From: a virus
Length of the DNA stretch: 64,000 nucleotides
Virus record (IMG/VR): IMGVR_UViG_3300023174_006147
Span: 1-64,000 of that record
Direction: 5' to 3' (one strand)
The notes under the pieces are model-generated. The model did no database searches, had not been told where the DNA came from, and worked only from the letters and a program-made list of their open reading frames with translations. The position numbers and the translations under genes are program-made. This document shows positions 38,199-60,091 of the stretch, one piece after another; position 1 is the stretch's first letter, and every line of letters starts with the position of its first letter.

Positions 38199-39617
38199 TT
38201 AGATATCGTAACGAGGATTCATGATGGCCTTCATCATAATTCCAGTAGGAGTAAACTCCTGCATATCAGCAGCAAGCAGTGCCTTGACAATGCTTGGGCT
38301 GAAACCGCTCACGAGTGCAGCACCCGACTTGTCTGCTTTCACCGGAACGTTATCACTAGCGTTCAGGTTCCAGAAGACAACCTGCGGAACAGTATAACCT
38401 GCTTCTGCGTACTTACGTTCGATCATCTGAATTGCAGTGTCGTCGTAGTTACTGCAACAATTAAACTGCATGTCCGAGAGGATAAGCAGCATTTCAGGCA
38501 TTTCACCCTGAGGTACACCGTTCTTGACTGCAACATCAAGGATCTTGTTGAATGCAGCGTGTAGGTTAGTACTCATGCCCCATTCGCTCTTGGCCATCTG
38601 TGCAGCCTTTTCAACAACATTGCCCTTGAGAGTAACTAGTTGAGGACTGGAACTGAAAGTAAGGAAAGTGTCCTTGAACTTGCCAGTGTTCTTGTCCGCA
38701 AGATAGAGACCCAGTGAAACTGCAACGTCAAGGCAAGTAACCTCACTCTTAGAAGAGCTACCACCTGCACGACAAGTCATAGAACCCGAAACATCAACAA
38801 GTGGAAGAATGTTTGCATCCCCAACATAGTTAGGAAGTGCATTCCACTGTGCCACAACGTGATCAAGCTCAGTCTTACCCAGCGAAGGACCATAGTGACG
38901 AATGACGCCCTTAAGAACATCATACGGATATACTGCACCAGCGTTGACCTTGGCAGTAGGATCACCCTTTACCAGCTTGGCAACGTACTCAGCAAACTTA
39001 GGAGTATTGCGAGTAAATGCCTTCTTGTAGCGCGAAGCTGCAAGACTAGGAACATGGTTAAAGTTGATGTTGTCCCAATCCTTAGCACACATCTGAGTTT
39101 CAACAACCTTGGTCAGGTTAACCAGAGTCTTACGATACTGCTTAGGGCTCATACCAAGTGCAGATCGAAGTTCTGCTGCCACTGCGCCCTTGCGAGGCAT
39201 CCACTTGGCGCAAAGACCATTGCCACTGGCAAGTGCTTCTGCGATCAGTGCGTATGCTTCGGTCTTGAGATCGATGGTTTCAAAGACGAGTAGATCGTCC
39301 CATCGGCCAATTTCTGGTACCTTTGCAAGAAGTGCCTTTGCTGCATCGGGGTCAGTCTTTTCCAGCTGAACAAGGATGTCACGGAAAATCTTACGTTCGC
39401 CTGCACCGCCACGAGCGTCACGCGCCCACTGTGCAACGCGCAGTGCAATTTCTCGATTTTCCACGAATGCACCAGTAAAGGCAGGGACGATATTCTTGCC
39501 ACGGCTCGCGCCAATTGCAAAGAAAAGGTCAACGTTCTTGGACGCTGACGACTTAAGAGCCCGCATGCCGTTAGTGGTACGAGCTTCCTGGTTTGCTACT
39601 GCTTCTACAAAATTCAT
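38199..39617 (-). CDS. Ro60/TROVE-like DUF2828 protein with C-terminal vWA domain
   Basis: TTNG, RDARGGAGER, GRWDDL, AKWMPR, MIDAS DVSGSM, SDMQF, VFWNL, SGFS. Confidence 0.8.
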   Translation of the reverse strand: MNFVEAVANQEARTTNGMRALKSSASKNVDLFFAIGASRGKNIVPAFTGAFVENREIALRVAQWARDARGGAGERKIFRDILVQLEKTDPDAAKALLAKVPEIGRWDDLLVFETIDLKTEAYALIAEALASGNGLCAKWMPRKGAVAAELRSALGMSPKQYRKTLVNLTKVVETQMCAKDWDNINFNHVPSLAASRYKKAFTRNTPKFAEYVAKLVKGDPTAKVNAGAVYPYDVLKGVIRHYGPSLGKTELDHVVAQWNALPNYVGDANILPLVDVSGSMTCRAGGSSSKSEVTCLDVAVSLGLYLADKNTGKFKDTFLTFSSSPQLVTLKGNVVEKAAQMAKSEWGMSTNLHAAFNKILDVAVKNGVPQGEMPEMLLILSDMQFNCCSNYDDTAIQMIERKYAEAGYTVPQVVFWNLNASDNVPVKADKSGAALVSGFSPSIVKALLAADMQEFTPTGIMMKAIMNPRYDI

Positions 39618-39630
39618 GTTTATTTCCTTT

Positions 39631-39683
39631 CAGGTTAATTTGGTTTGCTTTATGAATGCAAGTTTCTGTGCTGTTTTTAACCT
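39631..39683 (-). ncRNA. scaffold RNA A1 (payload: CAU anticodon-like hairpin), in the leader of the Ro-like gene
   Basis: AGGTTAA-AAA-CAGCA...TTGCA TTCATAA AGCAA...TTAACCTG. Confidence 0.65.
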
Positions 39684-39710
39684 ATTAAACAATGTGCTTA
39701 ATATGTGTGT

Positions 39711-39739
39711 ATTATAGTGTATTGTGTTGACTGCGTCAA
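39711..39739 (-). promoter_or_regulatory. sigma70-type promoter for A1 and the Ro-like gene
   Basis: TTGACG-N17-TATAAT. Confidence 0.75.
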
Positions 39740-39750
39740 CATATATTTTA

Positions 39751-39856
39751 CAGGATGTTGTGACATTAAAAGACCGGGAGTCGAACCCATTGTCACTGTC
39801 CCCACTGGACTGGCCCGCTAGTTTTGAGAGCGAATAATGATTGCGGTAATCATCCT
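39751..39856 (-). ncRNA. scaffold RNA A2 (payload includes a T arm)
   Basis: AGGATGA-TTA-CCGCA...GGGTTCGACTCCC...CATCCTG. Confidence 0.65.
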
Positions 39857-39876
39857 AAAATATGATTTGAATTAAA

Positions 39877-39940
39877 CAGGATGCCTTTTTTGCTTTTTTG
39901 ATTACAAGTCAAGTGCATAAAGGTTTGCTGCAGGCATCCT
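39877..39940 (-). ncRNA. scaffold RNA A3 (payload: Thr-UGU anticodon arm)
   Basis: AGGATGC-CTG-CAGCA...TTGA CTTGTAA TCAA...GCATCCTG. Confidence 0.7.
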
Positions 39941-39948
39941 TAAACTTA

Positions 39949-40347
39949 TTAGGTAAACGTCTTTAACGCTTTGATATCGTCACCAACATTGTCTTCCAAA
40001 ATTGGTCCAAGACCTAAGCAAGTAGTTGTTGGTTCATCGAATACTGTGAAACCAGCATCAGTCACAAGACTAGTACCACAGATATCCTTGTACTTTTCTT
40101 GTAGAGCCTTAAGCTCTTCGACGGTATCGACAATTAAGGTAATTTTATAAGCACGATCACCATTCTGGTACTTTTCTGCATCACTAGGTTCGTCAATGGC
40201 AAATCCATGTTCACCAGGAAATCTTTTTACAGAATCCCAAAAACTGTGAAGATAGGCGTGTCCTGCCTGAGTACACATCTTACCACGAATACCGTTCATT
40301 TTCTTTACCGATTCAAGGGCAAAGATACAGTACATTTTAACTTTCAT
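39949..40347 (-). CDS. pth2: peptidyl-tRNA hydrolase, Pth2 type
   Basis: GKMCTQAGHA, KITL, DAGFT, TCLGLGP; start moved to MKVKMY. Confidence 0.85.
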   Translation of the reverse strand: MKVKMYCIFALESVKKMNGIRGKMCTQAGHAYLHSFWDSVKRFPGEHGFAIDEPSDAEKYQNGDRAYKITLIVDTVEELKALQEKYKDICGTSLVTDAGFTVFDEPTTTCLGLGPILEDNVGDDIKALKTFT

Positions 40348-40365
40348 ATCTCTACCTTTCAAAAT

Positions 40366-40443
40366 TGGAGCGCCGGGCGTGATTCGAACACGCGGTGTTA
40401 CTGCTTTGCAGGCAGTTGCATTGGGCCTCTCTGCCACCGACGC
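40366..40443 (-). tRNA. tRNA-Cys(GCA)
   Basis: cloverleaf, U73, CCA. Confidence 0.9.
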
Positions 40444-40456
40444 ATTATTTAAATTC

Positions 40457-40544
40457 TGGCGGAGCGTGTGGGAATCGAACCCACTCTACCCATTTAGGTA
40501 GTACAGATTAGCAGTCTGCTGCATTACCGGCCTGCCCACGCTCC
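40457..40544 (-). tRNA. tRNA-Ser(GCT)
   Basis: long variable arm, CCA. Confidence 0.9.
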
Positions 40545-40596
40545 GTATTTGTTGTTGCAATTATAGTACTATTTATTAGTAGTGTCAACGCTAAAT

Positions 40597-41013
40597 TTAC
40601 AATCCTGCCTTTTTTACTAACTCTTTATATCCAGCCCAGCTAGGATGAATATGATCAGGTTGTACACGCTTAGTTGCAATAATCTGATCGCCATATTCGT
40701 GTGCTAGTTTCTCAACAATTGCATTTACATTTGCTTTACAAAACTTTTCATTGCAGGGCGGCATAATCCATACAACACGATTCGAGTGGACACGATTTCG
40801 CATCTTACGAAGTTCTGCTTCAGTATGAATGAACTGATGATCATTAGTGCCAAGACTAATGACAACTAGCTTAGAATCAAGAGCAGTATTGCCCCACTTC
40901 TTGTTCCACTGCCACGTGTTATATCCACCTTTAGCATATGAAACACATTGCTTAGGTGCAAACATTTCAGTACCAACGGCGATACTATCGCCGATAATTA
41001 AACATTCCAACAT
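40597..41013 (-). CDS. SGNH/GDSL hydrolase
   Basis: IGDSI, LGTND, DHIHP. Confidence 0.8.
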   Translation of the reverse strand: MLECLIIGDSIAVGTEMFAPKQCVSYAKGGYNTWQWNKKWGNTALDSKLVVISLGTNDHQFIHTEAELRKMRNRVHSNRVVWIMPPCNEKFCKANVNAIVEKLAHEYGDQIIATKRVQPDHIHPSWAGYKELVKKAGL

Positions 41014-49000: not shown

Positions 49001-49666
49001 TTATTCAAATTTTTTTATAATTCTTCCTTTATTCCAGCCAGGTGGAATAATATCTGTTTTTTTAATTTTTTTATTTACGTGACCATTCGTGATCCAAATA
49101 GATCCAAATTGAGAATTGTTTTTGCCCTTATTTTTTGATTTTCGAAGTTTTGCTAAAGTTTCTTCTGAATGCTTTTTACCAAAAAATGGATTACCACTTC
49201 CTGCATTTCTTTTCTTTGCAGCCAAGGAACGAGCTTCGCGATTTCTTTTTGCCCATTCTCCGTTTTCTTCTTTAAGTTTTTTTTGAGTATCTCTGCCTCT
49301 TTTTAGAGCATCTATAAAAATGAGCCGATATTCTGTAATTTTCATAGTGTTTTCGGTTCCGTTTCTGATATCCGACTTGTTTATATGACCAAATCCTCCT
49401 TGACCTCCAACACATAAGTTATATGTGTCGTCCCGATCACAAAATTCCTCCGTCACTAATTCTTTCTCTTTAACATTCATCTCGAATTCAGAATCAAATA
49501 TATATAATAGCTCTTTTTTAAAATTTTCTATTCCGTACTTTTTAATCGCAGCTTTTAATAATTTCCCGGATCCCATATACTCGTCATCTAGGTTCATAGT
49601 CTGATGCTTGCCTATGTAAATTTTATTATTGATTATATTTGTTATTTGATATATCGTGTAAAACAT
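49001..49666 (-). mobile_element. GIY-YIG Seg-like homing endonuclease with NUMOD3
   Basis: IYQITN..NKIYIG..YMGSG, NPFFGKKHSEET; between the two tRNA-Gln genes. Confidence 0.85.
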
Positions 49667-49782: not shown

Positions 49783-50262
49783 TTATTTTTCTTGCCTTGA
49801 GGAAAAAACTTCTATTGCGGCTAGAATGTGTTCATCCCGCAGGCCTTCACCGTCTTCAATATACACTAGCCGTTTAGATTCAGTAAACTTTCTGTCATCA
49901 AAGCAAACCCAATCGCATTCACCATTGTCAGCGATCCACTGATTAATGGCAATTAATCTACCAATACCACGAACAGTGCTTGTCACATCTGTATAATCAA
50001 TGTTTGGAAAAATTGTTCTCCAATCATTGTGAAAATGTGTTGGATCAATCCCCCAATGTATTAAATCTTCTTTTAAAGTTTTTCCATAGGGCAAGTGATA
50101 ATTGTGCATTGAGTTGGTTACAATTTTTGCACCAGACTCAATGCACAGATCATTGAGCAATTGAATTGAAACTTTATTACAAGCTAACCGCAGTTCAGAT
50201 ACCATGACTGGAGAACTTACATTAATTATTGGACCATCAATATCTAAAAATATTATTCTCAT
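49783..50262 (-). CDS. HAD phosphatase, Swiss-army-knife RNA-repair type (HAD_SAK_2-like)
   Basis: IFLDIDG...VCFDD...GL. Confidence 0.7.
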   Translation of the reverse strand: MRIIFLDIDGPIINVSSPVMVSELRLACNKVSIQLLNDLCIESGAKIVTNSMHNYHLPYGKTLKEDLIHWGIDPTHFHNDWRTIFPNIDYTDVTSTVRGIGRLIAINQWIADNGECDWVCFDDRKFTESKRLVYIEDGEGLRDEHILAAIEVFSSRQEK

Positions 50263-51140
50263 CTTTTAATTAATTCTTCTGTTAAGTCTATAAAACGAGA
50301 AAAGTCATGTAGCTTGTTCTTCCAATCATCAGGAATTCCAGTCAGTCCATAAAATGCACCAGCAATTTGTCCTGTGACAGCGCCAACAGTATCAGCATCG
50401 TCCCCGAGGTTAACTGCCTGCAAGATAGCATCCTTAAAGTTATCCGTGTGATACACGCACCATAGGGCAGCATGAAGAGTATGGATAACATATCCAGACG
50501 AAGAAACATATTCGCGGCTAACTTCAAGTGAAGTGAGAATGTTCTTTACATCTTCTACCCAATGATCTTTAGCAGTTACATTAAAAATCCGACTCTTTTC
50601 AGTGGTGTAGATTGCATTAAGTAACACTTCCGCCATAAGTTCACATGAATGCAAACAAGCAGGTGAAGCATGAGTTGTCTCACTCTGCACGAGTGCAGTT
50701 GCCTTTGCCTTTTCTTCGTCATCGTAATGCGCAAGTACTGCTGGACTAAGTCGCATAATTGAACCATTGCCTGCGCCGAAGAAATCTGGATTATTTTTAG
50801 TTTCACCGGTTTTTTTAAAGTTAGAAATTGCAGTGCGAGTAGTGTTGCCAATATCAAAGCACCGGCCAGTAGACGAGTTTGCACCGTTATAATACCAGTC
50901 TGCAAAGCGATTAAGAAGATCGGTTTTATCAAGGTCTCGATTAGAAACTAGACTATCTGCAAGGCAAAGTGCCATACTAGTATCGTCAGTCCAATAACCT
51001 ACAGGAAGATTGAACGGTCCACCACCAAGCATGTCAGTAACCGGTTCAAAAGTATCACGATCTCTAAATTCTACAGTGGTACCAATGGCATCACCCACAG
51101 CAAGCCCAATAAATGCTCCAGCTAATTTGTCTTTTAACAT
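50259..51140 (-). CDS. ADP-ribosylglycohydrolase (DraG/ARH family)
   Basis: GDAIG, WTDDT, GNGSIMR, GDDADT. Confidence 0.92.
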   Translation of the reverse strand: MLKDKLAGAFIGLAVGDAIGTTVEFRDRDTFEPVTDMLGGGPFNLPVGYWTDDTSMALCLADSLVSNRDLDKTDLLNRFADWYYNGANSSTGRCFDIGNTTRTAISNFKKTGETKNNPDFFGAGNGSIMRLSPAVLAHYDDEEKAKATALVQSETTHASPACLHSCELMAEVLLNAIYTTEKSRIFNVTAKDHWVEDVKNILTSLEVSREYVSSSGYVIHTLHAALWCVYHTDNFKDAILQAVNLGDDADTVGAVTGQIAGAFYGLTGIPDDWKNKLHDFSRFIDLTEELIKR

Positions 51141-51172: not shown

Positions 51173-53728
51173 CTAGAATGAATTGCTGTCAACTATCTCC
51201 ATGCCAAGATTTGCTATATAAGCCATTAACTCTTCAATCTCTTGACTGGTTGGATTTAATGTGCCAATAGCTTGATCTAATTGATCAACAGTTATTTTAT
51301 TTGACCGTGCTGCACTCTTAATCAATTGTTGAACAGCAGGTAAATCTCCCAATGGTGTTTTTTTCTTAGCAATATCCTGTATTGGAAAATCTAAAAGTTG
51401 CAATTGTTTGAACCCAATATACTTGGTAGAGCCATCTGAAAAGGTTACATCTGCGATTTTCATTATATTGCCTACATTAGCTATCTTACCAGTTTTGCCG
51501 GCAGCAGGCCCATCAATAACTTTAACAGAATCGCCTTGTTTAAACGAATGGACAGGTATTACTTCAGGTTCAGAAGTTTTAATTTTTTCAATTTCATTAG
51601 GATAAAGAAATGTCTTATCATCAGAATCGTCTAATTTTACTATAACATTGCCACTTTTTTGAATCTGAGTTATTGTGCCAGTTTTTCCTGTATTGTGCGT
51701 TCCTATGATTTTTACCTTATCGCCCTCTGAATATTGTTTAGGTGTTTTTACTTCTGGCTCTGGTTCCCACTTGAGATTGTCTAAGTTCAAATCTGGATCA
51801 TTTTTATCGGGGTTATCAAGTTTTTTAACAGTGAATGTATCATCACCGTATTCGTCTATAGCCTGATCATATTCATTCTGAGTGAGGAATTGTCCCTGAT
51901 AAAGCGGTGTAAGTCCTGGCATAGTAACTTCATAAGCAGCATCTATTAAATTAGGATTTTCAGCTTCGGCTTTAATCTTTTCAATATTTTTTAAGGGAAC
52001 ATCGATGGCAACCTTATTATCAAATTCTACATCAACTAGTGGCTTTGTAGAATAAGCGTATGATACTTCACCAGTTTTACCGGTGTATTTATGATTACCG
52101 ATGATCATAACCTTATCACCGTTTTTAACATCACCAATTTCTAGAGACTTTGGAGCAGCGCCGACTTTTTCAAGACTTGCCAAAGGAACATCATACAATT
52201 TTTTACCGTTGTCCAATTCTAATGTAGTATCTTTAAAAGAATCATGTACATCGGTAACAGTAGCGATATCACCTGCGTTAGAATGCTTGCCAATAATTTT
52301 TACTTTATCGCCTTTTTTAATTTTATCATTGTCAGTTTTTGTATCTAGTATTTTAACTTGGTGTGGCTTAAGAAGACCGTACTCGCCACCCTTGAAGAAT
52401 ATCTCGATGTTACCAGAAGTATACATGTGGGATATAGTTCCAGATTGACCATAGTATGCACTTTTAGTGTCAATAACTTCAACTAAATCACCATATTTAG
52501 GATCAGGAGTTTCTGAATCAGCTTCACTTTCGTGTTTAATATCTTTAATCTTGAAGTCGTTGGTCCAATTTTCACCATCCAACTTCACTGATACTTCGTC
52601 ATAATTGGTGTAAACATACTGTACTTCACCGGACAGCCCGTAATAGTGATTACCCTTGGATTTAACAGTAACACGGTCACCAATTTCATATTTTCCAGGT
52701 GTAATGATTTTAGGCTTGCCTTCGGGATAAACTTGTAGTTCTAGAAACTTCATGATATTTTTCATGAGACTTTCTTGAACAGCATAATATGCACCACGAA
52801 TAAAGACTTCATTTCCAGAAGCAATAGCCCCCGTCAGATCTTCTTGATCTAAATCAAATCCTTTGACTATTCCTTCAGGAGTCATGATGTTTTCAAGCTC
52901 AGTTAAAGGCATGAATTCTTTTGGGATGTCACCTGCTTCAATAGCTTTTTTAATTGAGTTAAGATTGTATTCTAGATTATATTCCCCAAAGAGATTATTA
53001 AAGATAAAATCATATTTTGCTCCTAGTTTTTCTCGATTGGTTAACACGAAATCTTTTAAAGGAGCAAGTAGTTCGTAGTCCAACATTTTTGGATAGGATC
53101 CTCTATCTAAAATTAAATCCTTGGTGTTTCGACTCCAGCTAAATGAAAATCCATCTTTGGGAAACATTACATATACTTTGCCATATCCCGAAGCCTGACT
53201 TTTATCACCTGATACGAATGATGAATTATCTCTTCTTGCTTCGAATCCAGCTGCTTCCATGCCTTTGTTAAAAATATCACTAAGGCGTGAACTACTGCTC
53301 ATTACACGGCGCTCATCAAATGGTTTACCATAGAGAGCATCTTCAGTGGACTTGATGCCGCGATAAAATACTTTGGCTTCAGAAGTTTTAAAATCTGGAT
53401 TTAAATCAGTATAAACTTTGACGATTTCTGTACAATTTTTTGCAATCCTCGTCATTAAATTATAAAATTGGATTGGAAGATTATTCTTTTCACTTTTAAG
53501 ATTTGACTTCTGTTGTTTTAGGGAATCAATTTCTGCATAGAGTCCCTGCTTCATTTTTTCATATTCAGCAGCAACTGAATCAGGCACTTTCATATTATTT
53601 GCAAGGGCCGCGCTTTCTTCATAATCAGTGATTTTCTTCAGCAGTTTTTCTAGTTTTGGCAAGTTAAGGGACATTCCCTTGCGCTCACCCGGCTTCAGTT
53701 CGGATTTAAAGATTTCTATAATTCTCAT
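51173..53728 (-). CDS. putative ADP-ribosyltransferase with KOW repeats, RpoC-like insert and C-terminal sigma70 region 1.1-like domain
   Basis: FYRG / SFVS / NEV triad; about 7 GDxV.I.G...G..G KOW repeats; MRIIEIF leader. Confidence 0.6.
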   Translation of the reverse strand: MRIIEIFKSELKPGERKGMSLNLPKLEKLLKKITDYEESAALANNMKVPDSVAAEYEKMKQGLYAEIDSLKQQKSNLKSEKNNLPIQFYNLMTRIAKNCTEIVKVYTDLNPDFKTSEAKVFYRGIKSTEDALYGKPFDERRVMSSSSRLSDIFNKGMEAAGFEARRDNSSFVSGDKSQASGYGKVYVMFPKDGFSFSWSRNTKDLILDRGSYPKMLDYELLAPLKDFVLTNREKLGAKYDFIFNNLFGEYNLEYNLNSIKKAIEAGDIPKEFMPLTELENIMTPEGIVKGFDLDQEDLTGAIASGNEVFIRGAYYAVQESLMKNIMKFLELQVYPEGKPKIITPGKYEIGDRVTVKSKGNHYYGLSGEVQYVYTNYDEVSVKLDGENWTNDFKIKDIKHESEADSETPDPKYGDLVEVIDTKSAYYGQSGTISHMYTSGNIEIFFKGGEYGLLKPHQVKILDTKTDNDKIKKGDKVKIIGKHSNAGDIATVTDVHDSFKDTTLELDNGKKLYDVPLASLEKVGAAPKSLEIGDVKNGDKVMIIGNHKYTGKTGEVSYAYSTKPLVDVEFDNKVAIDVPLKNIEKIKAEAENPNLIDAAYEVTMPGLTPLYQGQFLTQNEYDQAIDEYGDDTFTVKKLDNPDKNDPDLNLDNLKWEPEPEVKTPKQYSEGDKVKIIGTHNTGKTGTITQIQKSGNVIVKLDDSDDKTFLYPNEIEKIKTSEPEVIPVHSFKQGDSVKVIDGPAAGKTGKIANVGNIMKIADVTFSDGSTKYIGFKQLQLLDFPIQDIAKKKTPLGDLPAVQQLIKSAARSNKITVDQLDQAIGTLNPTSQEIEELMAYIANLGMEIVDSNSF

Positions 53729-53731
53729 AAA

Positions 53732-53745
53732 CATATTTATAAATA
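53732..53745. promoter_or_regulatory. palindromic bidirectional late promoter
   Basis: atatttataaatat gives TATAAATA on both strands, 5-6 nt before two divergent ATGs. Confidence 0.7.
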
Positions 53746-53751
53746 TATATT

Positions 53752-54507
53752 ATGAAAATAAAAGATCTTTTAAATGAAACCGCCATACAAGAGGGTCCGT
53801 ATGATCCTCACATTTTTAAAGCAGTTTTTATGGCCGGAGCACCAGGTGCTGGTAAAACAACTACCGCTAAAAAGCTACTCTCTGGTACAGGTCTAAGACA
53901 CCTCAATGTTGATGATTTTTATAATCTTATGAGACATAAAGGACGCGCTAGTGGCGATCAAAACAAGGATTACGAAGCATCTTGGAAAACGTATCGCGGC
54001 CTAGAAGAATTACTTCGTCAAGGTCGAATTGGTTTAATCATTGATGGTACTGCGAAGAATCCAGAAAAGATGGCTGATGTTAAAGCAGACCTAGAAGAAA
54101 TGGGTTATGAGACTGCAATGATTTTCGTTAACTCATCATTAGAAACAAGTCTCAAAAGAGCTACTGAACGTTCACAACGTCCTGGTCCAGACTTTGGAAG
54201 AGTAACTTCACCAAAACATATTGAAGATACCTGGAATAAGGTGCAAAAGGGAATAGGTTCATTACAGAACTTATTTGGAGCAAGGTTCTTTGTTATCGAT
54301 GCTGAACGTCCCGATGCCAACATTAACTATGTTGACAAGAGTATTAGATCTTGGCTTAACACGCCAGTTAAAACACAGGCAGCACGACAGTGGTTATCTG
54401 ATCCTAAAGCTGCACAAAAGCAAACAAGCACAAAGCCAGCAAAAGATGAACCTGCACAAACAACAGGTCAACGCCCTGCTGAACCGGAAACTCCCAAAGA
54501 AGTATAA
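53752..54507 (+). CDS. P-loop kinase (zeta-toxin/AAA_33-like) with MKIKDLL leader
   Basis: GAPGAGKT, NVDD, IIDGT. Confidence 0.7.
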   Translation: MKIKDLLNETAIQEGPYDPHIFKAVFMAGAPGAGKTTTAKKLLSGTGLRHLNVDDFYNLMRHKGRASGDQNKDYEASWKTYRGLEELLRQGRIGLIIDGTAKNPEKMADVKADLEEMGYETAMIFVNSSLETSLKRATERSQRPGPDFGRVTSPKHIEDTWNKVQKGIGSLQNLFGARFFVIDAERPDANINYVDKSIRSWLNTPVKTQAARQWLSDPKAAQKQTSTKPAKDEPAQTTGQRPAEPETPKEV

Positions 54508-54510: not shown

Positions 54511-54612
54511 CAGGATTGTGTTTTTTGGACGGGATTTGAACCCGCTCAGTTTGCGTTGAAAGCAAATGCTCTACCATTGAGCTACCATAAGGTTTTTTGC
54601 TGAAACAATCCT
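54511..54612 (-). ncRNA. scaffold RNA A4 (D + anticodon UCA + T arms, no acceptor stem)
   Basis: AGGATTG-TTT-CAGCA...TAGCTCAATGGTAGAGC-TTTGC TTTCAAC GCAAA-CGGGTTCAAATCCCG...CAATCCTG. Confidence 0.75.
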
Positions 54613-54627: not shown

Positions 54628-54752
54628 CAGAGTGTATTGTTCTTTACGTGCTCTACCAGCTGAGCTACCTCCCCGCAGTTGGTGGGGAGAGTTGGACTCG
54701 AACCAACGACACCGTCCTTTTCATGGATAGAATTTTATGCTGAAAACACTCT
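54628..54752 (-). ncRNA. scaffold RNA A5 (circularly permuted, YrlA-like tRNA domain)
   Basis: AGAGTGT-TTT-CAGCA...T arm-TCTCCCC ACCA ACTGC GGGGAGG-D arm...ACACTCTG. Confidence 0.8.
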
Positions 54753-55643: not shown

Positions 55644-56294
55644 TTATAGTTCAACAGTTTTTGAAATACCAGTTTGAATTGACTTATAAACATTTGTTCT
55701 TGTTGCCATCAACGGCAACAACGTATGGCGAACAAAGTTTCTGTCATACTTCTCAACGATATTAGTACTATCTTCGTTCCATATCAACTTAAAATGCAAT
55801 GCTTGATTGACAATAGTTTCTTTATCAACTTCTAAAAATGGCTTATAACGATAAAAACCATTTACCATAGTTAAAGGTCGCATTGTTAGACTATGATGCG
55901 GATCACCACGCATAAGCCTAATGAGTACATTTTCAACTTGATCATCTGCGTGATGTGCAGTCATGATATAGGTGAATCCGCGATTCCTTGCAATTTCTTC
56001 AATAAACTGCCATCTTGCCGTTCTAGCATCGACTTCATTTGAGTCTTTGGTAAGAGGACTAGTTTTATTTGTCCATAGAACTAGATTATGTTTTTGCGCA
56101 TATTCTGAAATCAAGTAGAAGTCTTTACACGAGTCTTCTCTCATATTGTGATCATAATGAACAATTTCAATGTAAACAGCACTTTTTACCAAAAAGTCTA
56201 ACAAGAAAATTGAATCAACTCCGCCTGAAACGCAGACAAGATATTTGTCGGCAGTAAACTCAATTTGTTTACGAATCTTACGCCAAGCGGTCAT
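55644..56294 (-). CDS. tilS: tRNA(Ile)-lysidine synthetase, minimal form
   Basis: SGGVDS, DHNMR, TAHHADDQ.E, EDSTN, RNFVR. Confidence 0.88.
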   Translation of the reverse strand: MTAWRKIRKQIEFTADKYLVCVSGGVDSIFLLDFLVKSAVYIEIVHYDHNMREDSCKDFYLISEYAQKHNLVLWTNKTSPLTKDSNEVDARTARWQFIEEIARNRGFTYIMTAHHADDQVENVLIRLMRGDPHHSLTMRPLTMVNGFYRYKPFLEVDKETIVNQALHFKLIWNEDSTNIVEKYDRNFVRHTLLPLMATRTNVYKSIQTGISKTVEL

Positions 56295-56446: not shown

Positions 56447-56582
56447 CGGGATGCTTTTGGTTTTGGACGGCCGCGTCTACCATTCCGCCATAGTCGCAAC
56501 AAGTACGACTAGTGGGACTCGAACCCACACATCCATTACAGATAGCTGTTTATCATTCCTAAAGTATGCAGAATGCATCCCT
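56447..56582 (-). ncRNA. scaffold RNA A6 (permuted tRNA domain, Leu-type D arm)
   Basis: GGGATGC-ATT-CTGCA...GTGGGTTCGAGTCCCAC-TAGTCG..CGACTA-TGGCGGAATGGTAGACGC...GCATCCCG. Confidence 0.75.
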
Positions 56583-56924: not shown

Positions 56925-57012
56925 CAGGATTACAGTTTTGAAGGGTTTGAACCTTCTCGTTTTTGAGTTGAAGTCAAAAATTTATCCATAAGATAAGTGC
57001 TGAAATAATCCT
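56925..57012 (-). ncRNA. scaffold RNA A7 (mini D, anticodon UCA, T arm)
   Basis: AGGATTA-TTT-CAGCA...TTTTTGA CTTCAAC TCAAAAA..GAAGGTTCAAACCCTTC...TAATCCTG. Confidence 0.7.
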
Positions 57013-57025: not shown

Positions 57026-57101
57026 TGGTACCCGGTGCAGGTTCTGCCCCCGCCGCCTCCTGCGTGTAAAGCAGGCGCTCTCCTGAATGAGCTAACCGGG
57101 C
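57026..57101 (-). tRNA. tRNA-Val(TAC), non-canonical T loop
   Basis: loop TTTACAC, T loop GGCAGAA. Confidence 0.85.
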
Positions 57102-57380: not shown

Positions 57381-57384
57381 ACAA

Positions 57385-57454: not shown

Positions 57455-57706
57455 CAACTAATTTCAGAGTGGCAGTAGTTTGTTACTAGTCTCTCTGACG
57501 ATATCAACTCCAGGTTTACTAGTGTTTGTCACTGCACGAAGCTTAATCCTCTGAAGATTAGCTTGCCGATATCGTTGTTTATAACAAATCCACCGACCCA
57601 GTTGTAATTTTGAAACTCTGTAAGTTTCTGCTAGAACATCTTAGAGTGTACAAGACTCTCCGTTCCTGATGCTTGCTTGTACTGCCGGTGAACTATGTTC
57701 ACTAAA

Positions 57707-57783
57707 TGGTGGCCCCATCGGGACTCGAACCCGGTTCTCCAGCTTGAGAGGCTAGTGTCCTAACCATGTCAGACGCTGGGGCC
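57707..57783 (-). tRNA. tRNA-Glu(CTC)
   Basis: cloverleaf + CCA. Confidence 0.85.
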
Positions 57784-57790
57784 ATTAAAA

Positions 57791-57897
57791 TGGTGGACGC
57801 AACTGGATTCGAACCAGTAAGGCTGCGCGGGCCCGTCCCAATTACATCTCGACACCCATTCGATACGTTGGCTTCGACCCAACCCAATGCTACGCCC
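57791..57897 (-). ncRNA. tRNA-like RNA (acceptor + T arm + CCA, non-tRNA core)
   Basis: GGGCGTA/TGCGTCC ACCA; ACTGGTTCGAATCCAGT. Confidence 0.65.
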
Positions 57898-57906
57898 ATT
57901 TAAATT

Positions 57907-57967
57907 TGGAGGTCTATGTGGGAGTCTAACCCACTTTCAACTATGTTGATTAACAACACGTAAGACC
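57907..57967 (-). ncRNA. minimal tRNA-like RNA
   Basis: GGTCT/AGACC TCCA; T-like arm GTGGGTTAGACTCCCAC. Confidence 0.5.
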
Positions 57968-57971
57968 CATA

Positions 57972-58047
57972 TGGTGGAGCCTATCGGTATCGAACCGATC
58001 GCCTACACAATGCCATTGTGTCGCTCTCCCATCTGAGCTAATGCCCC
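57972..58047 (-). tRNA. tRNA-Ala(GGC)
   Basis: G3:U70, CCA. Confidence 0.85.
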
Positions 58048-58143
58048 AGTGTAGGATTCACACTTGCCAGAACATTTCGTTCTACCCTCCATTACATGAC
58101 CGGGCTGTGTTGATACGCTGTGCGTTCCTACTTCATCAATAAT

Positions 58144-58259
58144 TGGTGTGCAGCACTGGAGTCGAACCAGCCAATAACAAAACCATTAACATAGCGTATT
58201 TGTTTATATAACGCTACTGTGGATTTATCTGCTTCCCTTCCCAGAGGATTTCACTACAC
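58144..58259 (-). ncRNA. tRNA-like RNA (acceptor + T arm + CCA)
   Basis: GTGTAGT/GCTGCAC ACCA; CTGGTTCGACTCCAG. Confidence 0.6.
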
Positions 58260-58266
58260 ATAAAAA

Positions 58267-58360
58267 TGGCGGGACTTTTGGAATCGAACCATAACATGAT
58301 ACATGTTGCTGAAAACATTCGTTGGACGGAATGCTCCTACACCCAAGTAGGTTGAGTCCC
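58267..58360 (-). ncRNA. CCA-ending tRNA-like RNA with internal permuted family-A module
   Basis: GGGACT/AGTCCC GCCA; GCATTC..GAATGT-TTT-CAGCA. Confidence 0.7.
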
Positions 58361-58368
58361 ATTAAAAT

Positions 58369-58461
58369 TGGTGGAGGGAATTGGAGTCGAACCAATTAAT
58401 TTTGTGATGCGGTAGATATTCACTGGACTGAATACATTCTGCGCCATGCAGGATTCCCTCC
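58369..58461 (-). ncRNA. CCA-ending tRNA-like RNA with internal permuted family-A module
   Basis: GGAGGGA/TCCCTCC ACCA; GTATTCA-GTCCAG-TGAATAT-CTA-CCGCA. Confidence 0.7.
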
Positions 58462-58466
58462 GAAAC

Positions 58467-58544
58467 TGGTCTAGAAGGCAGGATTTGAACCTGCGACCCC
58501 CTCATTCCAAATGAGGTACGCTACCCTGGCTGCGCTACTCCTAG
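58467..58544 (-). tRNA. tRNA-Pro(TGG), second copy (A37)
   Basis: loop TTTGGAA, CCA. Confidence 0.85.
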
Positions 58545-58552
58545 ATAAAAAT

Positions 58553-58642
58553 TGGTGTCAGTGTGGGAATTGAACCCACTCGGACTCTACCCTCTCGACG
58601 CCTGAGAAAGAAGGGAGCCGGTTAAGCCTAACCAATACTGAC
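58553..58642 (-). ncRNA. tRNA-like RNA (acceptor + T arm + CCA)
   Basis: GTCAGT/ACTGAC ACCA; GTGGGTTCAATTCCCAC. Confidence 0.6.
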
Positions 58643-58648
58643 ATAAAA

Positions 58649-58779
58649 TGGTGGCAGCATCACCGTTTCAGCATTATTGTAGAGACTTCAAAGTTTTAGA
58701 TGTATGCCTACACCAAACTCTACTGCTTTCACCCGATGGCTTGTTCAATGTTAACTAGTATAGAACAAGTTACGCTGCC
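58649..58779 (-). ncRNA. structured RNA with acceptor-like stem and CCA
   Basis: GGCAGCG/TGCTGCC ACCA; internal CTTGTTC/GAACAAG and GTAGAG/CTCTAC helices. Confidence 0.55.
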
Positions 58780-58791
58780 GTTTTCTTAAAA

Positions 58792-58866
58792 TGGTGGAGA
58801 CGGAGGGAATCGAACCCTCAATTGAAGCTTGCAAAGCTACCGTGTTCCCGTTAGCACTACGCCCCC
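58792..58866 (-). tRNA. tRNA-Ala(TGC)
   Basis: G3:U70, CCA. Confidence 0.9.
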
Positions 58867-58868
58867 AT

Positions 58869-58947
58869 TGGTTGCAGAGGTTGGATTTGAACCAACGATT
58901 TCCGGCTTATGAGACCAGCGAGGACGACCTGACTCCTCTACTCCGCG
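58869..58947 (-). tRNA. tRNA-fMet(CAT)
   Basis: C1:A72 mismatch, CAT. Confidence 0.8.
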
Positions 58948-58963
58948 ATAAAACTTTAAAAAC

Positions 58964-59037
58964 TGGAGCGGGTGAAGGGAATCGAACCCTCATATTCAGC
59001 TTGGAAGGCTGCTGCATTACCACTATGCTACACCCGC
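58964..59037 (-). tRNA. tRNA-Gly(TCC)
   Basis: cloverleaf + CCA. Confidence 0.9.
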
Positions 59038-59041
59038 ATTA

Positions 59042-59127
59042 AAACTTTTTAGAAGAACACACTGCCCGCAGCGTCCCTGGTTCATATCTTGTCAATTCAA
59101 GACCACGGTGTATTCATCTAAAAAGTC
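59042..59127 (-). ncRNA. family-B helix RNA B3
   Basis: AGACTTTTTAGA-T-GAATACAC...GTGTGTTC-T-TCTAAAAAGTTT. Confidence 0.6.
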
Positions 59128-59203
59128 TGGTGCCCGCACGAGGATTCGAACCCCGGACCTACTGATTACAAATCAGTTGCGCTACCAACTGTGCCATACG
59201 GGC
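59128..59203 (-). tRNA. tRNA-Thr(TGT)
   Basis: cloverleaf + CCA. Confidence 0.92.
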
Positions 59204-59222
59204 GTATCAGACTTTATTAAAA

Positions 59223-59279
59223 CAGGATCCGCTTGTTTTTCACCAAAAGAAAAATTTAATTGTTTGCGGTATGGATCCT
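59223..59279 (-). ncRNA. scaffold RNA A8 (payload: Gln-UUG-like anticodon arm)
   Basis: AGGATCC-ATA-CCGCA...TTTTTC TTTTGGT GAAAAA...GGATCCTG. Confidence 0.65.
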
Positions 59280-59359
59280 TAAACTTTATAAAAATCATTA
59301 TATACTAACTTATTTATTATGTCAATATCTTTGTTTACTTAAACAGAATAAATATCTAC

Positions 59360-59959
59360 ATGAAAATTCACGAATTATTTACTGAGTCCGATTTACAAGA
59401 AGTTACTCGGCCATCACTAACACAAGCACATCGAAGGCTTCATCAAGCTGGATATTTCAAACTTGGCGAAGGATATTTTGCATCAGTCTTTTATCGTGAA
59501 GGCGAATCATCCGTTCTAAAACTATTCAGCAACAGGGATCTAGGATATATAGATTTTATTCGTTTAGTGGGTGAGAATCCCAATGTGCATTTTCCAAAAT
59601 TCTCAAGACGTGCAAAAGCTATTAAAATCACAGATGGATATTCTGCAATTCGCATGGAATTTTTAAAACCTCTTCCAGAATCAACTATATATGGCTCAAG
59701 TAGACAACTTGGTGATATTGTTTATCAATATATCTTGAAACTTAAACATGGAAAGATAGGTCCAGGTGATGAGGTGGAAATTGATCCTAAAATCGACATT
59801 GAACAATTCATGTTGAAGCTTGAACGAAAGCAACCTGGATTTATTCAGGCTTGTAAACTTATTGCAAACTCCACCCGCAGTGATAGTAACATTGACATTA
59901 GTGAAGAAAATATCATGCTTCGTGGTGGCACTCTTGTTATCACAGATCCACTTTCTTGA
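59360..59959 (+). CDS. protein kinase-like late protein with MKIHELF leader
   Basis: LGEGYFASV, VLK, ME, DISEENIM, ITDP; ATAAATA 5 nt before ATG. Confidence 0.7.
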   Translation: MKIHELFTESDLQEVTRPSLTQAHRRLHQAGYFKLGEGYFASVFYREGESSVLKLFSNRDLGYIDFIRLVGENPNVHFPKFSRRAKAIKITDGYSAIRMEFLKPLPESTIYGSSRQLGDIVYQYILKLKHGKIGPGDEVEIDPKIDIEQFMLKLERKQPGFIQACKLIANSTRSDSNIDISEENIMLRGGTLVITDPLS

Positions 59960-59969
59960 TAATTTAAAA

Positions 59970-60091
59970 CAGGATATACATTTTTTCGTTGCTCTACCAG
60001 ACTGAGCTACTTCCCCATAGGTGGCGGGGAAGGCAGGATTTGAACCTACGACCAACGGCTTGACATGCTAAAATAATGCTGTAGATATCCT
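59970..60091 (-). ncRNA. scaffold RNA A9 (circularly permuted, YrlA-like tRNA domain)
   Basis: AGGATAT-CTA-CAGCA...CGTTG-T arm-CTTCCCC GCCA CCTAT GGGGAAG-D arm-CAACG...ATATCCTG. Confidence 0.8.

What the first reader, a model, noticed from the sequence alone, without database searches (positions are those of the whole stretch)
38199..60091. Ro60-like (DUF2828) protein with a diversified family of scaffolded tRNA-mimic RNAs
Seen in sequence: nine minus-strand intergenic elements share one architecture, a 7-bp closing helix, 3 nt, CNGCA, then a variable payload, the complementary strand and G. The 5'/3' strands are A1 39631 AGGTTAA/TTAACCT, A2 39751 AGGATG/CATCCT, A3 39877 AGGATGC/GCATCCT, A4 54511 AGGATTG/CAATCCT, A5 54628 AGAGTGT/ACACTCT, A6 56447 GGGATGC/GCATCCC, A7 56925 AGGATTA/TAATCCT, A8 59223 AGGATCC/GGATCCT and A9 59970 AGGATAT/ATATCCT. 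The helix sequence changes with compensation while the CNGCA spacing is fixed. Every payload is tRNA-derived, and three copies sit immediately upstream of the DUF2828/vWA gene. Established: bacterial Ro60 (Rsr) binds the terminal stem of Y RNAs, and YrlA RNAs carry a tRNA-like domain. Inference: this is an analogous RNP with a different protein family and recognition motif, expanded into a modular repertoire. Possible roles are decoys for anticodon nucleases, or adaptors tethering the ring protein to different tRNA-handling enzymes. I do not know of a description of this motif, but I could not search.
Basis: partly seen in the sequence, partly recalled or inferred. Interest (0 to 1): 0.95.

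Follow-up and report, generated by a model that had tools for sequence, protein, structure and literature searches.

The report
Phage Ro60-like protein's handle RNAs
A large freshwater phage encodes a ring protein that folds like the RNA-binding protein Ro60, plus nine small RNAs that share one conserved "handle" and carry different imitations of tRNA parts; the same pairing sits in very different phages and I found no paper or Rfam family describing the RNAs.

Summary
All nine minus-strand elements exist at the stated places. They share a 7-bp closing stem (6 bp in A2), exactly 3 nt, CNGCA, a variable payload, an A-rich stretch, the complementary strand and G.

The 472-aa DUF2828+DUF7788 protein has the full Ro60 fold (pLDDT 91; Z 21.9 to Xenopus Ro60 over 413 residues) with an intact MIDAS site.

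The handle lies beside DUF2828 genes, on the gene strand:
- in 77 of 80 related viral contigs;
- in 13 unrelated named phages tested, infecting Proteobacteria, Firmicutes, Actinobacteria, Cyanobacteria, Campylobacter and Fusobacterium;
- in 56 of 80 bacterial or archaeal assembly loci.

It is absent from five DUF2828-less phages, two of which carry canonical TROVE Ro60.

Payloads are YrlA-type permuted tRNAs (A5, A6, A9), acceptor-less tRNA bodies (A4, A7), hairpins of which A3 and A8 look like anticodon loops (A1, A3, A8), and a multi-hairpin RNA (A2). A1 sits in the gene's 5' UTR against the ribosome-binding site, which suggests autoregulation.

Binding and function are inferred, not shown. 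I read this as an undescribed branch of the Ro60/Y-RNA particle.

A preprint showed that the Bas63 homologue (gp130) counters the Ppl defence, but only guessed at partner RNAs. The handle also resembles Dictyostelium Class I RNAs (sub-threshold).

This scan has reported the same system on many other genomes.

The parts
38199..39617 (-). Gene for the 472-aa Ro60-fold protein (DUF2828 + DUF7788/vWA)
   Evidence: Pfam PF11443 E 4.5e-22 and PF25043 E 2.9e-49. PHROG 850 'RNA-binding protein' E 8.8e-147. AF2 pLDDT 91.2. Ro60 matches: Foldseek E 2.9e-9 and Z 21.9 over 413 residues. MIDAS D275/S277/S279/T350/D382 invariant.
39711..39739 (-). Sigma-70-type promoter (TTGACG-17-TATAAT) upstream of A1 and the gene
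   Evidence: 11 of 12 consensus matches; read.
39625..39629 (-). Shine-Dalgarno AAGGA of the DUF2828 gene, 2 nt after the G that closes A1
   Evidence: Read. The same layout (handle 3' strand, G, AAAGGA, about 21-25 nt to ATG) is seen in relatives.
39631..39683 (-). A1: leader handle RNA in the 5' UTR (AGGTTAA/TTAACCT, AAA-CAGCA), small hairpin payload
   Evidence: R1 34.3 bits, E 8e-6 (it was a training sequence).
39751..39856 (-). A2: handle RNA with a 6-bp stem (AGGATG/CATCCT, TTA-CCGCA); multi-hairpin payload with one T-loop-like hairpin
   Evidence: R1 23 bits, E 0.006. Orthologous payload in L016.
39877..39940 (-). A3: handle RNA (AGGATGC/GCATCCT, CTG-CAGCA) with an anticodon-stem-loop-like hairpin, loop CUUGUAA
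   Evidence: R1 52.8 bits (training sequence).
54511..54612 (-). A4: handle RNA (AGGATTG/CAATCCT, TTT-CAGCA) holding a tRNA body (D, anticodon UCA, T arms) without its own acceptor stem
   Evidence: tRNA model 62.2 bits. ARAGORN 'tRNA-SeC tca'. R1 28.6 bits, E 2e-4, not in training.
54628..54752 (-). A5: handle RNA (AGAGTGT/ACACTCT, TTT-CAGCA) holding a circularly permuted tRNA (T arm, capped acceptor with ACCA, D arm)
   Evidence: YrlA RF02553 35.2 bits, model 23-89 only. R1 27.2 bits, E 4e-4, not in training.
56447..56581 (-). A6: handle RNA (GGGATGC/GCATCCC, ATT-CTGCA) holding a permuted class-II-like tRNA (variable arm, T arm, capped acceptor, Leu-type D arm)
   Evidence: read directly. 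Not reached by R1 or the Rfam YrlA model.
56925..57012 (-). A7: handle RNA (AGGATTA/TAATCCT, TTT-CAGCA) holding an acceptor-less tRNA-like body, anticodon loop CUUCAAC (UCA)
   Evidence: ARAGORN 'tRNA-SeC tca'. tRNA model 24.3 bits, below threshold. R1 32.8 bits, E 1.9e-5, not in training.
59223..59279 (-). A8: handle RNA (AGGATCC/GGATCCT, ATA-CCGCA) with a small hairpin (7-nt loop UUUUGGU); preceded by a TTGACA...TATAAT promoter
   Evidence: R1 52.9 bits (training sequence). RF01414 Dicty Class I 28.8 bits, full length.
59970..60091 (-). A9: handle RNA (AGGATAT/ATATCCT, CTA-CAGCA) holding a permuted tRNA (T arm, capped acceptor with GCCA, D arm)
   Evidence: YrlA RF02553 43.8 bits, model 23-87 only. 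R1 24.1 bits, E 0.0025, not in training.

Best explanation
The nine elements are genes, or processed transcript segments, for small RNAs that partner the neighbouring DUF2828/DUF7788 protein, a Ro60-fold ring with a vWA/MIDAS domain. The shared handle is the protein's docking site, by analogy with the conserved stem of Y RNAs bound by Ro60. The handle is a 7-bp terminal stem of free sequence, an unpaired N-U-N-CAGCA(A) on the 5' side, an A-rich 3' side, and G(UU) after the stem. The variable payload is displayed from that handle and imitates parts of tRNA. It can be an anticodon stem-loop, a tRNA body without an acceptor stem, or a permuted tRNA with a sealed acceptor, as in YrlA. These payloads would recruit or titrate proteins that recognise tRNA, such as anticodon nucleases and repair, modification or decay enzymes. 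The phage benefits during infection, probably in the conflict over tRNA damage and defence. The copy in the gene's own 5' UTR (A1) ends 2 nt before the Shine-Dalgarno sequence, so free protein probably represses its own translation. Shown here: the motif, its covariation and spacing, its strand-specific linkage to DUF2828 genes in many lineages, the Ro60 fold, and the tRNA-like payloads. Inferred: that the protein binds the handle, that the RNAs are discrete and stable, the autoregulation, and the biological role.
For: Motif and statistics. Protein fold: pLDDT 91.2. The top 12 Foldseek hits are all Ro60/TROVE, with 1yvr at E 2.9e-9. Z is 21.9, rmsd 3.9 A over 413 residues to 1yvp, against Z about 10 for vWA-only hits. 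The MIDAS residues are invariant. Linkage in 80 related viral contigs: 363 gene-strand hits against 62 opposite-strand hits; 176 lie within 400 nt upstream of the gene; 77 of 80 loci have at least one there. Adjacent copies on the gene strand occur in Citrobacter Ci1, Synechococcus BUCT-ZZ01, Vibrio 1.081.O, Felixounavirus BPS17W1 and Bas63, Listeria A511, mycobacteriophage LeBron, Campylobacter PC14, Staphylococcus 6ec, Enterococcus UTI-EfS3, Bacillus FADO, Sinorhizobium phiM12 and Fusobacterium phiKSUM. Whole-record model searches of eight named DUF2828 phages give 22 hits at E<=0.05, all on the gene strand and within about 10 kb of the gene. In five further lineages most model hits are again adjacent, but three weak ones (E 0.007-0.05) lie far from the gene. 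T4, T5, K, Bxz1 and CcrColossus (875 kb) give 0 hits; they lack PF11443, and two of them carry TROVE. In 80 bacterial or archaeal assembly loci, 152 gene-strand hits lie within 600 nt of the gene against 6 on the other strand. Payloads: YrlA core matches for A5 and A9. Of 112 short elements in relatives, 55 have a 7-nt loop with U at position 2 and a purine at position 6, against 4 after shuffling. Leader layout. Published work: Bas63 gp130, which I confirmed as a homologue (39% identity, E 2e-101), counters the Ppl defence. Thermus phage Ro60 binds two RNAs encoded upstream of its gene.
Against: No experiment here or in the papers I could read shows that a DUF2828 protein binds these RNAs. 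Bas63 gp130 relieved Ppl defence when expressed alone from a plasmid or from T7, so at least that effect may not need the RNAs. A2 and A6 depart from the consensus. Twenty-four of 80 bacterial loci had no strict hit within 600 nt. In LeBron, the Felix O1-type phages and 6ec the RNAs lie downstream of the gene, so leader autoregulation is not universal. Linkage could reflect co-transcription with tRNA operons and not binding. Expression evidence is only one short contig from a lake RNA library, which may hold DNA.
Confidence: 0.72

Rival explanations
1. The handle is a processing or stability module of tRNA-operon transcripts, recognised by a host or other phage factor such as an RNase or chaperone. 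It sits near DUF2828 only because that gene lives in tRNA islands.
For: Most copies lie among tRNA genes. The flanks are U-rich. gp130 works without the RNAs in T7.
Against: tRNA-rich phages without DUF2828 (T4, T5, Bxz1, CcrColossus) have no copies. In LeBron, 6ec and Fusobacterium phiKSUM the copies hug the gene, with at most one tRNA gene in the stretch fetched. A leader copy sits in the gene's own 5' UTR.
Confidence: 0.12
2. The elements are only cis-regulatory leaders or attenuators of the DUF2828 gene and neighbouring genes, not trans-acting RNAs.
For: A1 lies between the promoter and the Shine-Dalgarno sequence. Leader copies occur in many relatives.
Against: Six of the nine lie 15-20 kb away among tRNA genes, some directly before tRNAs. 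In several phages all copies are downstream of the gene. The payloads are elaborate tRNA mimics.
Confidence: 0.05
3. A5, A6 and A9 are permuted tRNA genes, and A4 and A7 are odd tRNAs, that are processed into working tRNAs. The handle is their processing signal.
For: They have full T and D arms. The acceptor 3' strands of A5 and A9 are followed by ACCA or GCCA. A4 scores 62 bits with the tRNA model.
Against: A5 and A9 have no anticodon arm; a 4-bp stem runs into the handle. A4 and A7 have no pairable acceptor strands. A1, A3 and A8 are only about 50-65 nt. Bacteria lack the splicing endonuclease pathway used for permuted tRNAs (established knowledge).
Confidence: 0.04
4. The elements are miniature mobile elements with terminal inverted repeats and a GTTTAA target duplication.
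For: They have inverted ends and GTTTAA-like flanks on both sides of several copies.
Against: The inner stem positions differ between copies yet stay complementary. CAGCA occurs on one strand only, at a fixed offset. Orientation always follows the gene. Stem sequences differ completely between phage families.
Confidence: 0.02

Closest known systems
Ro60 (Rsr, TROVE + vWA) with Y RNAs, especially bacterial and phage YrlA (Rfam RF02553; Chen et al. 2014, PMC4201824)
   Same: Both have a ring-plus-vWA protein fold and small RNAs encoded beside the gene on the same strand. A terminal stem with an asymmetric internal loop serves as the likely docking site. The payload of A5, A6 and A9 has the YrlA topology: T arm, sealed acceptor, D arm.
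   Different: The protein does not match the Pfam TROVE model and is only 12-16% identical to solved Ro60s. The handle (7 bp, NUN-CAGCAA) is not the YrlA outer stem (cggCga-AUGCu...aAaAcUuG-ucGccg). YrlA scores are below the Rfam threshold. There are many paralogous RNAs per genome with other payloads, such as anticodon-loop mimics, acceptor-less tRNAs and large multi-hairpin RNAs. TROVE-Ro60 phages lack the handle.
Thermus phage phiLo Ro60 with Yrl1 and Yrl2 (PMC12135203; PDB 9KOP, 9L5Y)
   Same: A phage-encoded Ro60-fold protein with two RNAs encoded upstream of its gene. Binding was shown there, and a complex forms with host PNPase.
   Different: phiLo Ro60 is a TROVE-type protein whose RNAs carry a 'CGAA' bulge motif. 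It has no CAGCA handle and no tRNA-mimic repertoire is described.
Bas63 gp130 (PhageMaP preprint, 10.1101/2024.10.10.617714)
   Same: It is a true homologue of the window's protein (39% identity). It was noted as Ro60-like, and the authors guessed that Y RNAs hide among the downstream tRNA genes.
   Different: The RNAs were not identified there. I find four handle RNAs between its tRNA genes. The Ppl-countering effect was obtained with the protein alone.
Dictyostelium Class I RNAs (Rfam RF01414; Kjellin et al. 2021, PMC7919456)
   Same: Both have a short covarying terminal stem joining the 5' and 3' ends, an adjacent unpaired motif ending in CAGCAA with a conserved U three positions before it, a variable A-rich interior, and the 3' end ...CUGU. 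Length is about 55-60 nt, as for A1, A3 and A8.
   Different: The matches are sub-threshold (28.8 against 41.5 bits) and rare: 1 of 9 elements here, and 1 in four related loci that hold at least 12 short elements. There is a 1-nt offset between stem and motif. Class I RNAs are eukaryotic, have their own promoter element and a known direct binder (the RRM protein Rnp1A). I could not test whether dictyostelids have a DUF2828 protein.

Membership tests
DUF2828/DUF7788 protein family (Pfam PF11443 + PF25043; PHROG 850) | Matches to both Pfam models above the curated cut-offs | tested here: met
   78.9 bits (cut-off 29) and 167.8 bits (cut-off 27.1). PHROG 850 E 8.8e-147.
Ro60 / TROVE proteins | HEAT-repeat ring followed by a vWA domain (whole-chain fold) | tested here: met
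   Z 21.9, rmsd 3.9 A, 413 residues aligned to 1yvp_A. All top hits are Ro60/TROVE.
Ro60 / TROVE proteins | Sequence match to Pfam TROVE (PF05731) | tested here: not met
   TROVE is not among the Pfam hits at E<=0.01. A profile search against PDB gives Ro60 only at E 0.14, in the MIDAS stretch.
Ro60 / TROVE proteins | MIDAS motif (DxSxS...T...D) in the vWA domain | tested here: met
   D275, S277, S279, T350 and D382 are invariant in 73 homologues. They align to the Ro60 DVSASM stretch.
Ro60 / TROVE proteins | Binds Y RNA stems on the outer surface and single-stranded RNA ends in the central hole | not testable with these tools
   No protein-RNA docking or experiment was available.
YrlA Y RNA (Rfam RF02553) | Score at or above the Rfam gathering threshold (69 bits) | tested here: not met
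   A9 43.8 bits and A5 35.2 bits. The LeBron element scores 39.8 bits.
YrlA Y RNA (Rfam RF02553) | tRNA-like core: short stem, T arm, sealed acceptor hairpin, D arm | tested here: met
   Alignment of A9 to model positions 23-87 and of A5 to 23-89. A6 by direct reading. This does not apply to A1-A4, A7 and A8.
YrlA Y RNA (Rfam RF02553) | Canonical outer (Ro-binding) stem and internal loop, model positions 1-22 and 88-114 | tested here: not met
   These positions are unmatched in A5 and A9. The consensus shown has no CAGCA.
Dictyostelium Class I RNA (Rfam RF01414) | Score at or above the gathering threshold (41.5 bits) | tested here: not met
   A8 scores 28.8 bits. There is one further 28.8-bit hit in four related loci.
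Dictyostelium Class I RNA (Rfam RF01414) | Short covarying terminal stem plus an adjacent conserved motif (U3, C6, C9, A10, A11), ends AAG...CUGU | tested here: inconclusive
   The consensus AG-stem, NUN-CAGCAA...CCU-GUU fits the published description with a 1-nt offset. I had no Dictyostelium sequences to align.
Canonical tRNA | 7-bp acceptor stem formed by the RNA's own 5' and 3' ends with a free 3' end | tested here: not met
   A4 and A7 have unpairable acceptor strands enclosed by the handle. In A5, A6 and A9 the acceptor is closed by a loop.

The most novel reading that the evidence does not exclude
The CAGCA handle and the Dictyostelium Class I RNA signature are the same ancient RNA module. 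On this reading, DUF2828/DUF7788 proteins (present in phages, bacteria, an archaeon, fungi and plants) are its cognate ring-protein partner. Class I RNAs, orphan for 20 years, would then be Y-like RNAs of a DUF2828 protein. One candidate is the unknown-function protein DDB_G0281243, which was pulled down with Class I RNA DdR-21.
Probability: 0.12. Interest if true: 0.92.

Novelty: new variant of a known kind. Interest (0 to 1): 0.78.

Why it matters
DUF2828 proteins occur in 711 of 50,697 phage records, and more than 6,000 representative proteins matched in the metagenome-scale search. No partner or mechanism is known for them. This analysis gives them a specific, testable RNA partner family and a binding-site hypothesis with clear mutants: the CAGCA box, the 3-nt spacer and the stem. 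It turns a published guess into concrete loci, namely four unannotated RNAs in Bas63, a phage with genetics and a known Ppl phenotype. The interchangeable tRNA-mimic payloads suggest a programmable decoy or adaptor system in the phage-host conflict over tRNAs, next to phage tRNA arrays and RNA-repair genes. These RNAs are also currently mis-annotated as 'tRNA-SeC', pseudo-tRNAs or small hypothetical ORFs. If the Class I RNA resemblance is homology, the reach extends to eukaryotes.

Tried and rejected
- **No informative hits.** Megablast of the region against phage records found nothing. NCBIfam and single-sequence phmmer against PDB found nothing.
- **Chance or unrelated pattern matches.** The pattern match at 8289-8303 lies inside a clamp-loader-like ORF with no 3' partner, so it is chance. 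The scan hit at 58373-58461 is an odd tRNA-like gene whose D arm happens to read CTGCA; it is not a family member.
- **T4 rnaC and rnaD.** I suspected these stable RNAs of the T4 tRNA cluster might belong to the family. They have no handle, and T4 has no model hit.
- **Dicty Class I model (RF01414).** It reaches only 1 of 9 elements here, and 1 element in four related loci that hold at least 12 short elements, always below threshold.
- **Expression.** Only contigs were available. One lake RNA-library run holds short pieces, including a 188-nt contig over 54578-54761 with 8 differences. DNA carry-over cannot be excluded and ends cannot be read. Parts without cover say nothing.
- **Dictyostelium protein link, untested.** Avesson et al. 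2011 is not held. DDB_G0281243 appears in one preprint only. The supplements hold nothing on it. The longer-protein search returned fungi and plants only. The Atlas search gave no amoebozoan cluster.
- **Complex prediction** was not used, because it cannot model RNA.
- **Chen et al. 2014** supplementary phage table is not held.

Full report
**What the window is.** The window is the first 64 kb of an 84-kb IMG/VR virus record, estimated 22% complete. DNA runs that hold the stretch come from lake and freshwater metagenomes. It carries at least 40 tRNA genes, all on the minus strand. No close relative is in the named-phage collection.

**Observation.** I read all nine elements on the minus strand. 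Each has a 7-bp closing stem (6 bp plus an A/A mismatch in A2), exactly three nucleotides, C-N-G-C-A, a payload of about 30-110 nt, an A-rich stretch, the complementary strand and a G. Most are followed by UU.
- A mechanical scan recovered eight elements with perfect stems on the minus strand. Composition-preserving shuffles gave about four matches per 64 kb over both strands, with unrelated stems.
- Two further matches are not members. The one at 8289 lies in a coding sequence with no partner strand. The one at 58373-58461 is an unusual tRNA-like gene.
- A covariance model (R1) built from 56 short elements of many phages finds A1, A3 and A8 (training sequences) and also A4, A5, A7 and A9 (not in training) at E<=0.0025. 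No other hit in the window falls below E 0.3.
- A search of the phage's own 84-kb record lists A2 at E 0.006 and nothing beyond 64 kb; A5 and A9 were not listed in that run. A6 is seen only by the scan and by eye.

**Handle anatomy.** From 274 distinct elements in 80 related viral contigs the consensus is UUU-AGGAUNN-NUN-CAGCAA ... AAAAN-NNAUCCU-GUU.
Of 164 distinct CNGCA sites within 400 nt upstream of DUF2828 genes, 112 (68%) have a 7-bp partner plus G when the 5' strand lies exactly 3 nt upstream. At offsets 0-10 other than 3 the figure is 0-6%, and inside the coding sequence it is 2.3%.
- All seven stem pairs show changes on both sides (125 cells). Sliding the partner by one to three columns drops pairing to 28-44%. 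Pairing was a selection criterion, so only the variety of pairs is informative.
- Between phage families the stems are entirely different while the CAGCA box and spacing stay. Examples are AGACCAA, TGAGCGC, AAGACAC and ATGGTAC.

**Payloads.**
- A9 and A5 match the tRNA-like core of YrlA (Rfam RF02553) at 43.8 and 35.2 bits, but only model positions 23-87 and 23-89. These cover a 4-bp stem, T arm, sealed acceptor hairpin and D arm. Their acceptor 3' strands are followed by GCCA and ACCA, a sign of descent from tRNA genes.
- A6 reads as the same topology built from a class II (Leu-like) tRNA with a variable arm.
- A4 and A7 are tRNA bodies in normal order: D arm, anticodon arm with UCA, T arm. 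Their acceptor strands cannot pair, so the handle replaces the acceptor stem.
- A3 and A8 are hairpins with 7-nt loops. A1 is a small hairpin. A2 is a multi-hairpin RNA with one T-loop-like hairpin.
- In relatives, 86 of 112 short elements have a hairpin with at least 4 bp and a 7-nt loop, against 27 after shuffling. Of these, 55 carry U at loop position 2 and a purine at position 6, mostly as CU-NNN-AA, against 4 after shuffling. Many different 'anticodons' appear: UGA, UUU, UGU, GAA, UCU, CAU and others.
- Relatives also hold 160-230 nt payloads that are not tRNA-like. 'Every payload is tRNA-derived' is therefore too strong, but tRNA mimicry is the dominant theme.

**The protein.**
- ORF 38199-39617 (472 aa) matches DUF2828 and DUF7788 and PHROG 850, 'RNA-binding protein'. 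It does not match Pfam TROVE.
- With an alignment of 73 homologues at 42-84% identity, AlphaFold gives pLDDT 91.2 and pTM 0.90.
- The 12 best Foldseek hits are all Ro60/TROVE chains over the full length (1yvr, E 2.9e-9, TM 0.65). They include Deinococcus Rsr and Thermus phage phiLo Ro60.
- The second aligner gives Z 21.9, rmsd 3.9 A and 413 residues to Xenopus Ro60. vWA-only proteins stop near Z 10.
- The MIDAS residues are invariant.
- This is a very divergent Ro60-fold protein. SEA-PHAGES annotators already call the mycobacteriophage members 'Ro-like RNA binding protein'.

**Co-occurrence.**
- In the 80 related viral contigs there are 363 hits on the gene strand against 62 on the other. Of these, 176 lie within 400 nt upstream of the start codon, and 77 of 80 loci have one to four there.
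- In named phages sharing only 30-50% protein identity, the handle lies directly beside the gene on its strand. It is upstream in BUCT-ZZ01 (3 copies), Listeria A511 (3), Campylobacter PC14 (2), Enterococcus UTI-EfS3 (3), Bacillus FADO (4), Sinorhizobium phiM12 and Fusobacterium phiKSUM; in the last, U replaces the closing G. It is downstream in LeBron (3), Staphylococcus 6ec (3), Felixounavirus BPS17W1 and Bas63 (4 each) and Citrobacter Ci1. In Vibrio 1.081.O it lies in the tRNA island a few kb upstream.
- Whole-record searches with R1 of eight named DUF2828 phages gave 22 hits at E<=0.05, all on the gene strand and within about 10 kb of the gene.
- In five further lineages most R1 hits are again adjacent, but three weak ones (E 0.007-0.05) lie far from the gene. 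The Enterococcus phage has no R1 hit, although the scan finds three copies upstream.
- Five phages without DUF2828 (T4, T5, K, Bxz1, CcrColossus; 875 kb) gave none. A positive control shows the DUF2828 search works, and Bxz1 and CcrColossus carry canonical TROVE Ro60. The handle therefore tracks DUF2828, not tRNA islands or Ro60 in general.
- In 80 loci from bacterial and one archaeal genome assembly, 152 gene-strand hits lie within 600 nt of the gene against 6 on the opposite strand, and 56 loci have at least one. Many of these contigs may be prophages or binned phages.

**Regulatory layout.**
- A near-consensus promoter (TTGACG-17-TATAAT, 39739-39711) precedes A1. The closing G of A1 is 2 nt from the AAGGA Shine-Dalgarno sequence and 13 nt from the ATG.
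- The same arrangement, ending 21-25 nt before the ATG, recurs across relatives and in phiM12, phiKSUM, PC14 and BUCT-ZZ01. It is the classic layout of a translational operator. I infer feedback repression by free protein. It is not universal, because several families place all RNAs downstream of the gene.
- A8 has its own promoter and heads a tRNA transcript. A6 is followed by a promoter for tRNA-Met.

**What is known.**
- Chen et al. 2014 found YrlA RNAs beside TROVE-annotated genes only.
- phiLo Ro60 binds two upstream RNAs with a different ('CGAA') motif and forms a complex with host PNPase.
- The PhageMaP preprint found that Bas63 gp130 is Ro60-like in structure and counters the Ppl defence. 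This held even when the protein was expressed alone or from T7. The authors guessed that some downstream 'tRNA genes' might be Y RNAs. I confirmed gp130 as a homologue. I located four unannotated handle RNAs between its tRNAs, one of them YrlA-like, partly under spurious small ORFs.
- LeBron gp53 is moderately toxic when overexpressed.
- A search for 'DUF2828' returned no phage paper, and Rfam 15 has no family for the handle.
- Earlier notes of this scan describe the same system on more than 100 other genomes and pointed me to the Class I RNA resemblance. One of them was later checked: the observation stood and its bold reading got 6/100.

**Class I RNAs.**
- A8 aligns over the full Rfam Dicty_Class_I_RNA model at 28.8 bits (threshold 41.5). 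The model consensus is GaUcuC-CUUACAGCAA ... AAAAAcCCUuG-agAuC-UG.
- Kjellin et al. describe a 6-bp covarying stem, an adjacent 11-nt unpaired motif with invariant U3, C6, C9, A10 and A11, and ends AAG...CUGU. They report the class as unique to Dictyostelia. That description fits the phage consensus with a 1-nt offset.
- The CM-level signal is weak and rare. I could not test whether dictyostelids encode a DUF2828 protein.
- Eukaryotic DUF2828+DUF7788 proteins do exist in fungi and plants.
- The preprint version lists an unknown-function protein, DDB_G0281243, among four proteins pulled down with a Class I RNA. Its family is worth checking.
- I treat this link as a lead, with probability about 0.1.

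**Mechanism and rivals.**
- Most likely (0.72): the handle is the docking site of the Ro60-fold protein, the payload is a displayed tRNA mimic, and A1 is an autoregulatory operator.
- The biological role is inferred. Supporting context includes the gp130 phenotype and the neighbourhood in this window: a PP-loop ATPase, a HAD domain of 'Swiss Army Knife' RNA-repair proteins, an ADP-ribosylglycohydrolase and a Zeta/AAA_33 kinase. A511 has RtcB and an RNA ligase next to the gene. This points to the conflict over tRNA damage. The RNAs could act as decoys or adaptors for anticodon nucleases, or for repair or decay enzymes. I give this about 0.35.
- The rivals each fail on specific observations, listed in their entries. 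They are a processing signal unrelated to the protein, purely cis-regulatory leaders, working permuted tRNAs, and mobile elements.

**Limits.** No binding or expression experiment exists for this RNA family.

Noticed in passing
window 58373-58461 (-): An unusual 89-nt tRNA-like gene. It has acceptor GGAGGGA/TCCCTCC followed by ACCA, and a T arm, but a long odd interior. Neither ARAGORN nor the Rfam tRNA model calls it.
   Followed up: partly
window 58555-58644 (-): A 90-nt tRNA-like sequence ending in ...ACTGACACCA. It gives only a weak tRNA-Sec model hit (24.5 bits, threshold 47).
   Followed up: no
window 57029-57101 and 57710-57783 (-): Two tRNA-model hits (45.2 and 46.4 bits) that ARAGORN did not report. 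The array therefore holds more than 40 tRNA genes.
   Followed up: no
window 55644-56294 (-): A PP-loop ATPase (PF01171, E 3e-40) inside the tRNA array. This is the family of tRNA(Ile)-lysidine synthase (TilS), and two CAU-anticodon tRNAs are nearby, so it may be a phage TilS.
   Followed up: no
window 49783-51140 (-) and 53752-54507 (+): Three neighbouring genes form an RNA-repair-like neighbourhood inside the tRNA island: a HAD domain of 'Swiss Army Knife' RNA-repair proteins (PF18143), an adjacent ADP-ribosylglycohydrolase (PF03747, E 6e-74), and a Zeta-toxin/AAA_33 P-loop kinase on the opposite strand.
   Followed up: no
window 51173-53734 (-): An 853-aa ORF with several weak KOW/SH3-like repeat matches and a sigma-70 region 1.1-like C-terminus. 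Its function is unknown.
   Followed up: no
window 49001-49666 (-): A GIY-YIG/NUMOD3 homing-endonuclease-like gene between tRNA genes, as with segB in the T4 tRNA cluster.
   Followed up: no
L108 2327-3001 (Enterococcus phage UTI-EfS3): Each of the three handle RNAs upstream of the DUF2828 gene is preceded by a repeated unit of about 50 nt containing a GTTCC...GGAAC-type hairpin. It may be a processing or promoter module.
   Followed up: no
L093 3465-4016 (Listeria phage A511): A ROOL RNA match (87.5 bits, threshold 99.1) lies about 1 kb upstream of the DUF2828 gene. RtcB and an RNA ligase lie downstream.
   Followed up: no
L097 27749-28023 (Bas63) and L009 7988-8101 (Citrobacter phage Ci1): Annotation artefacts around handle RNAs. 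The small minus-strand 'hypothetical protein' bas63_0137 overlaps the handle RNAs at 27695-27762 and 27782-27907. In Ci1 a 'tRNA-Pseudo' feature lies just upstream of, and does not overlap, the handle element at 8118-8248.
   Followed up: partly
L098 2909-3172 (phage T4 rnaC, rnaD): The two stable RNAs of the T4 tRNA cluster, whose function is still unknown, have tRNA-like 3' parts but no CAGCA handle. They are a different kind of RNA.
   Followed up: partly
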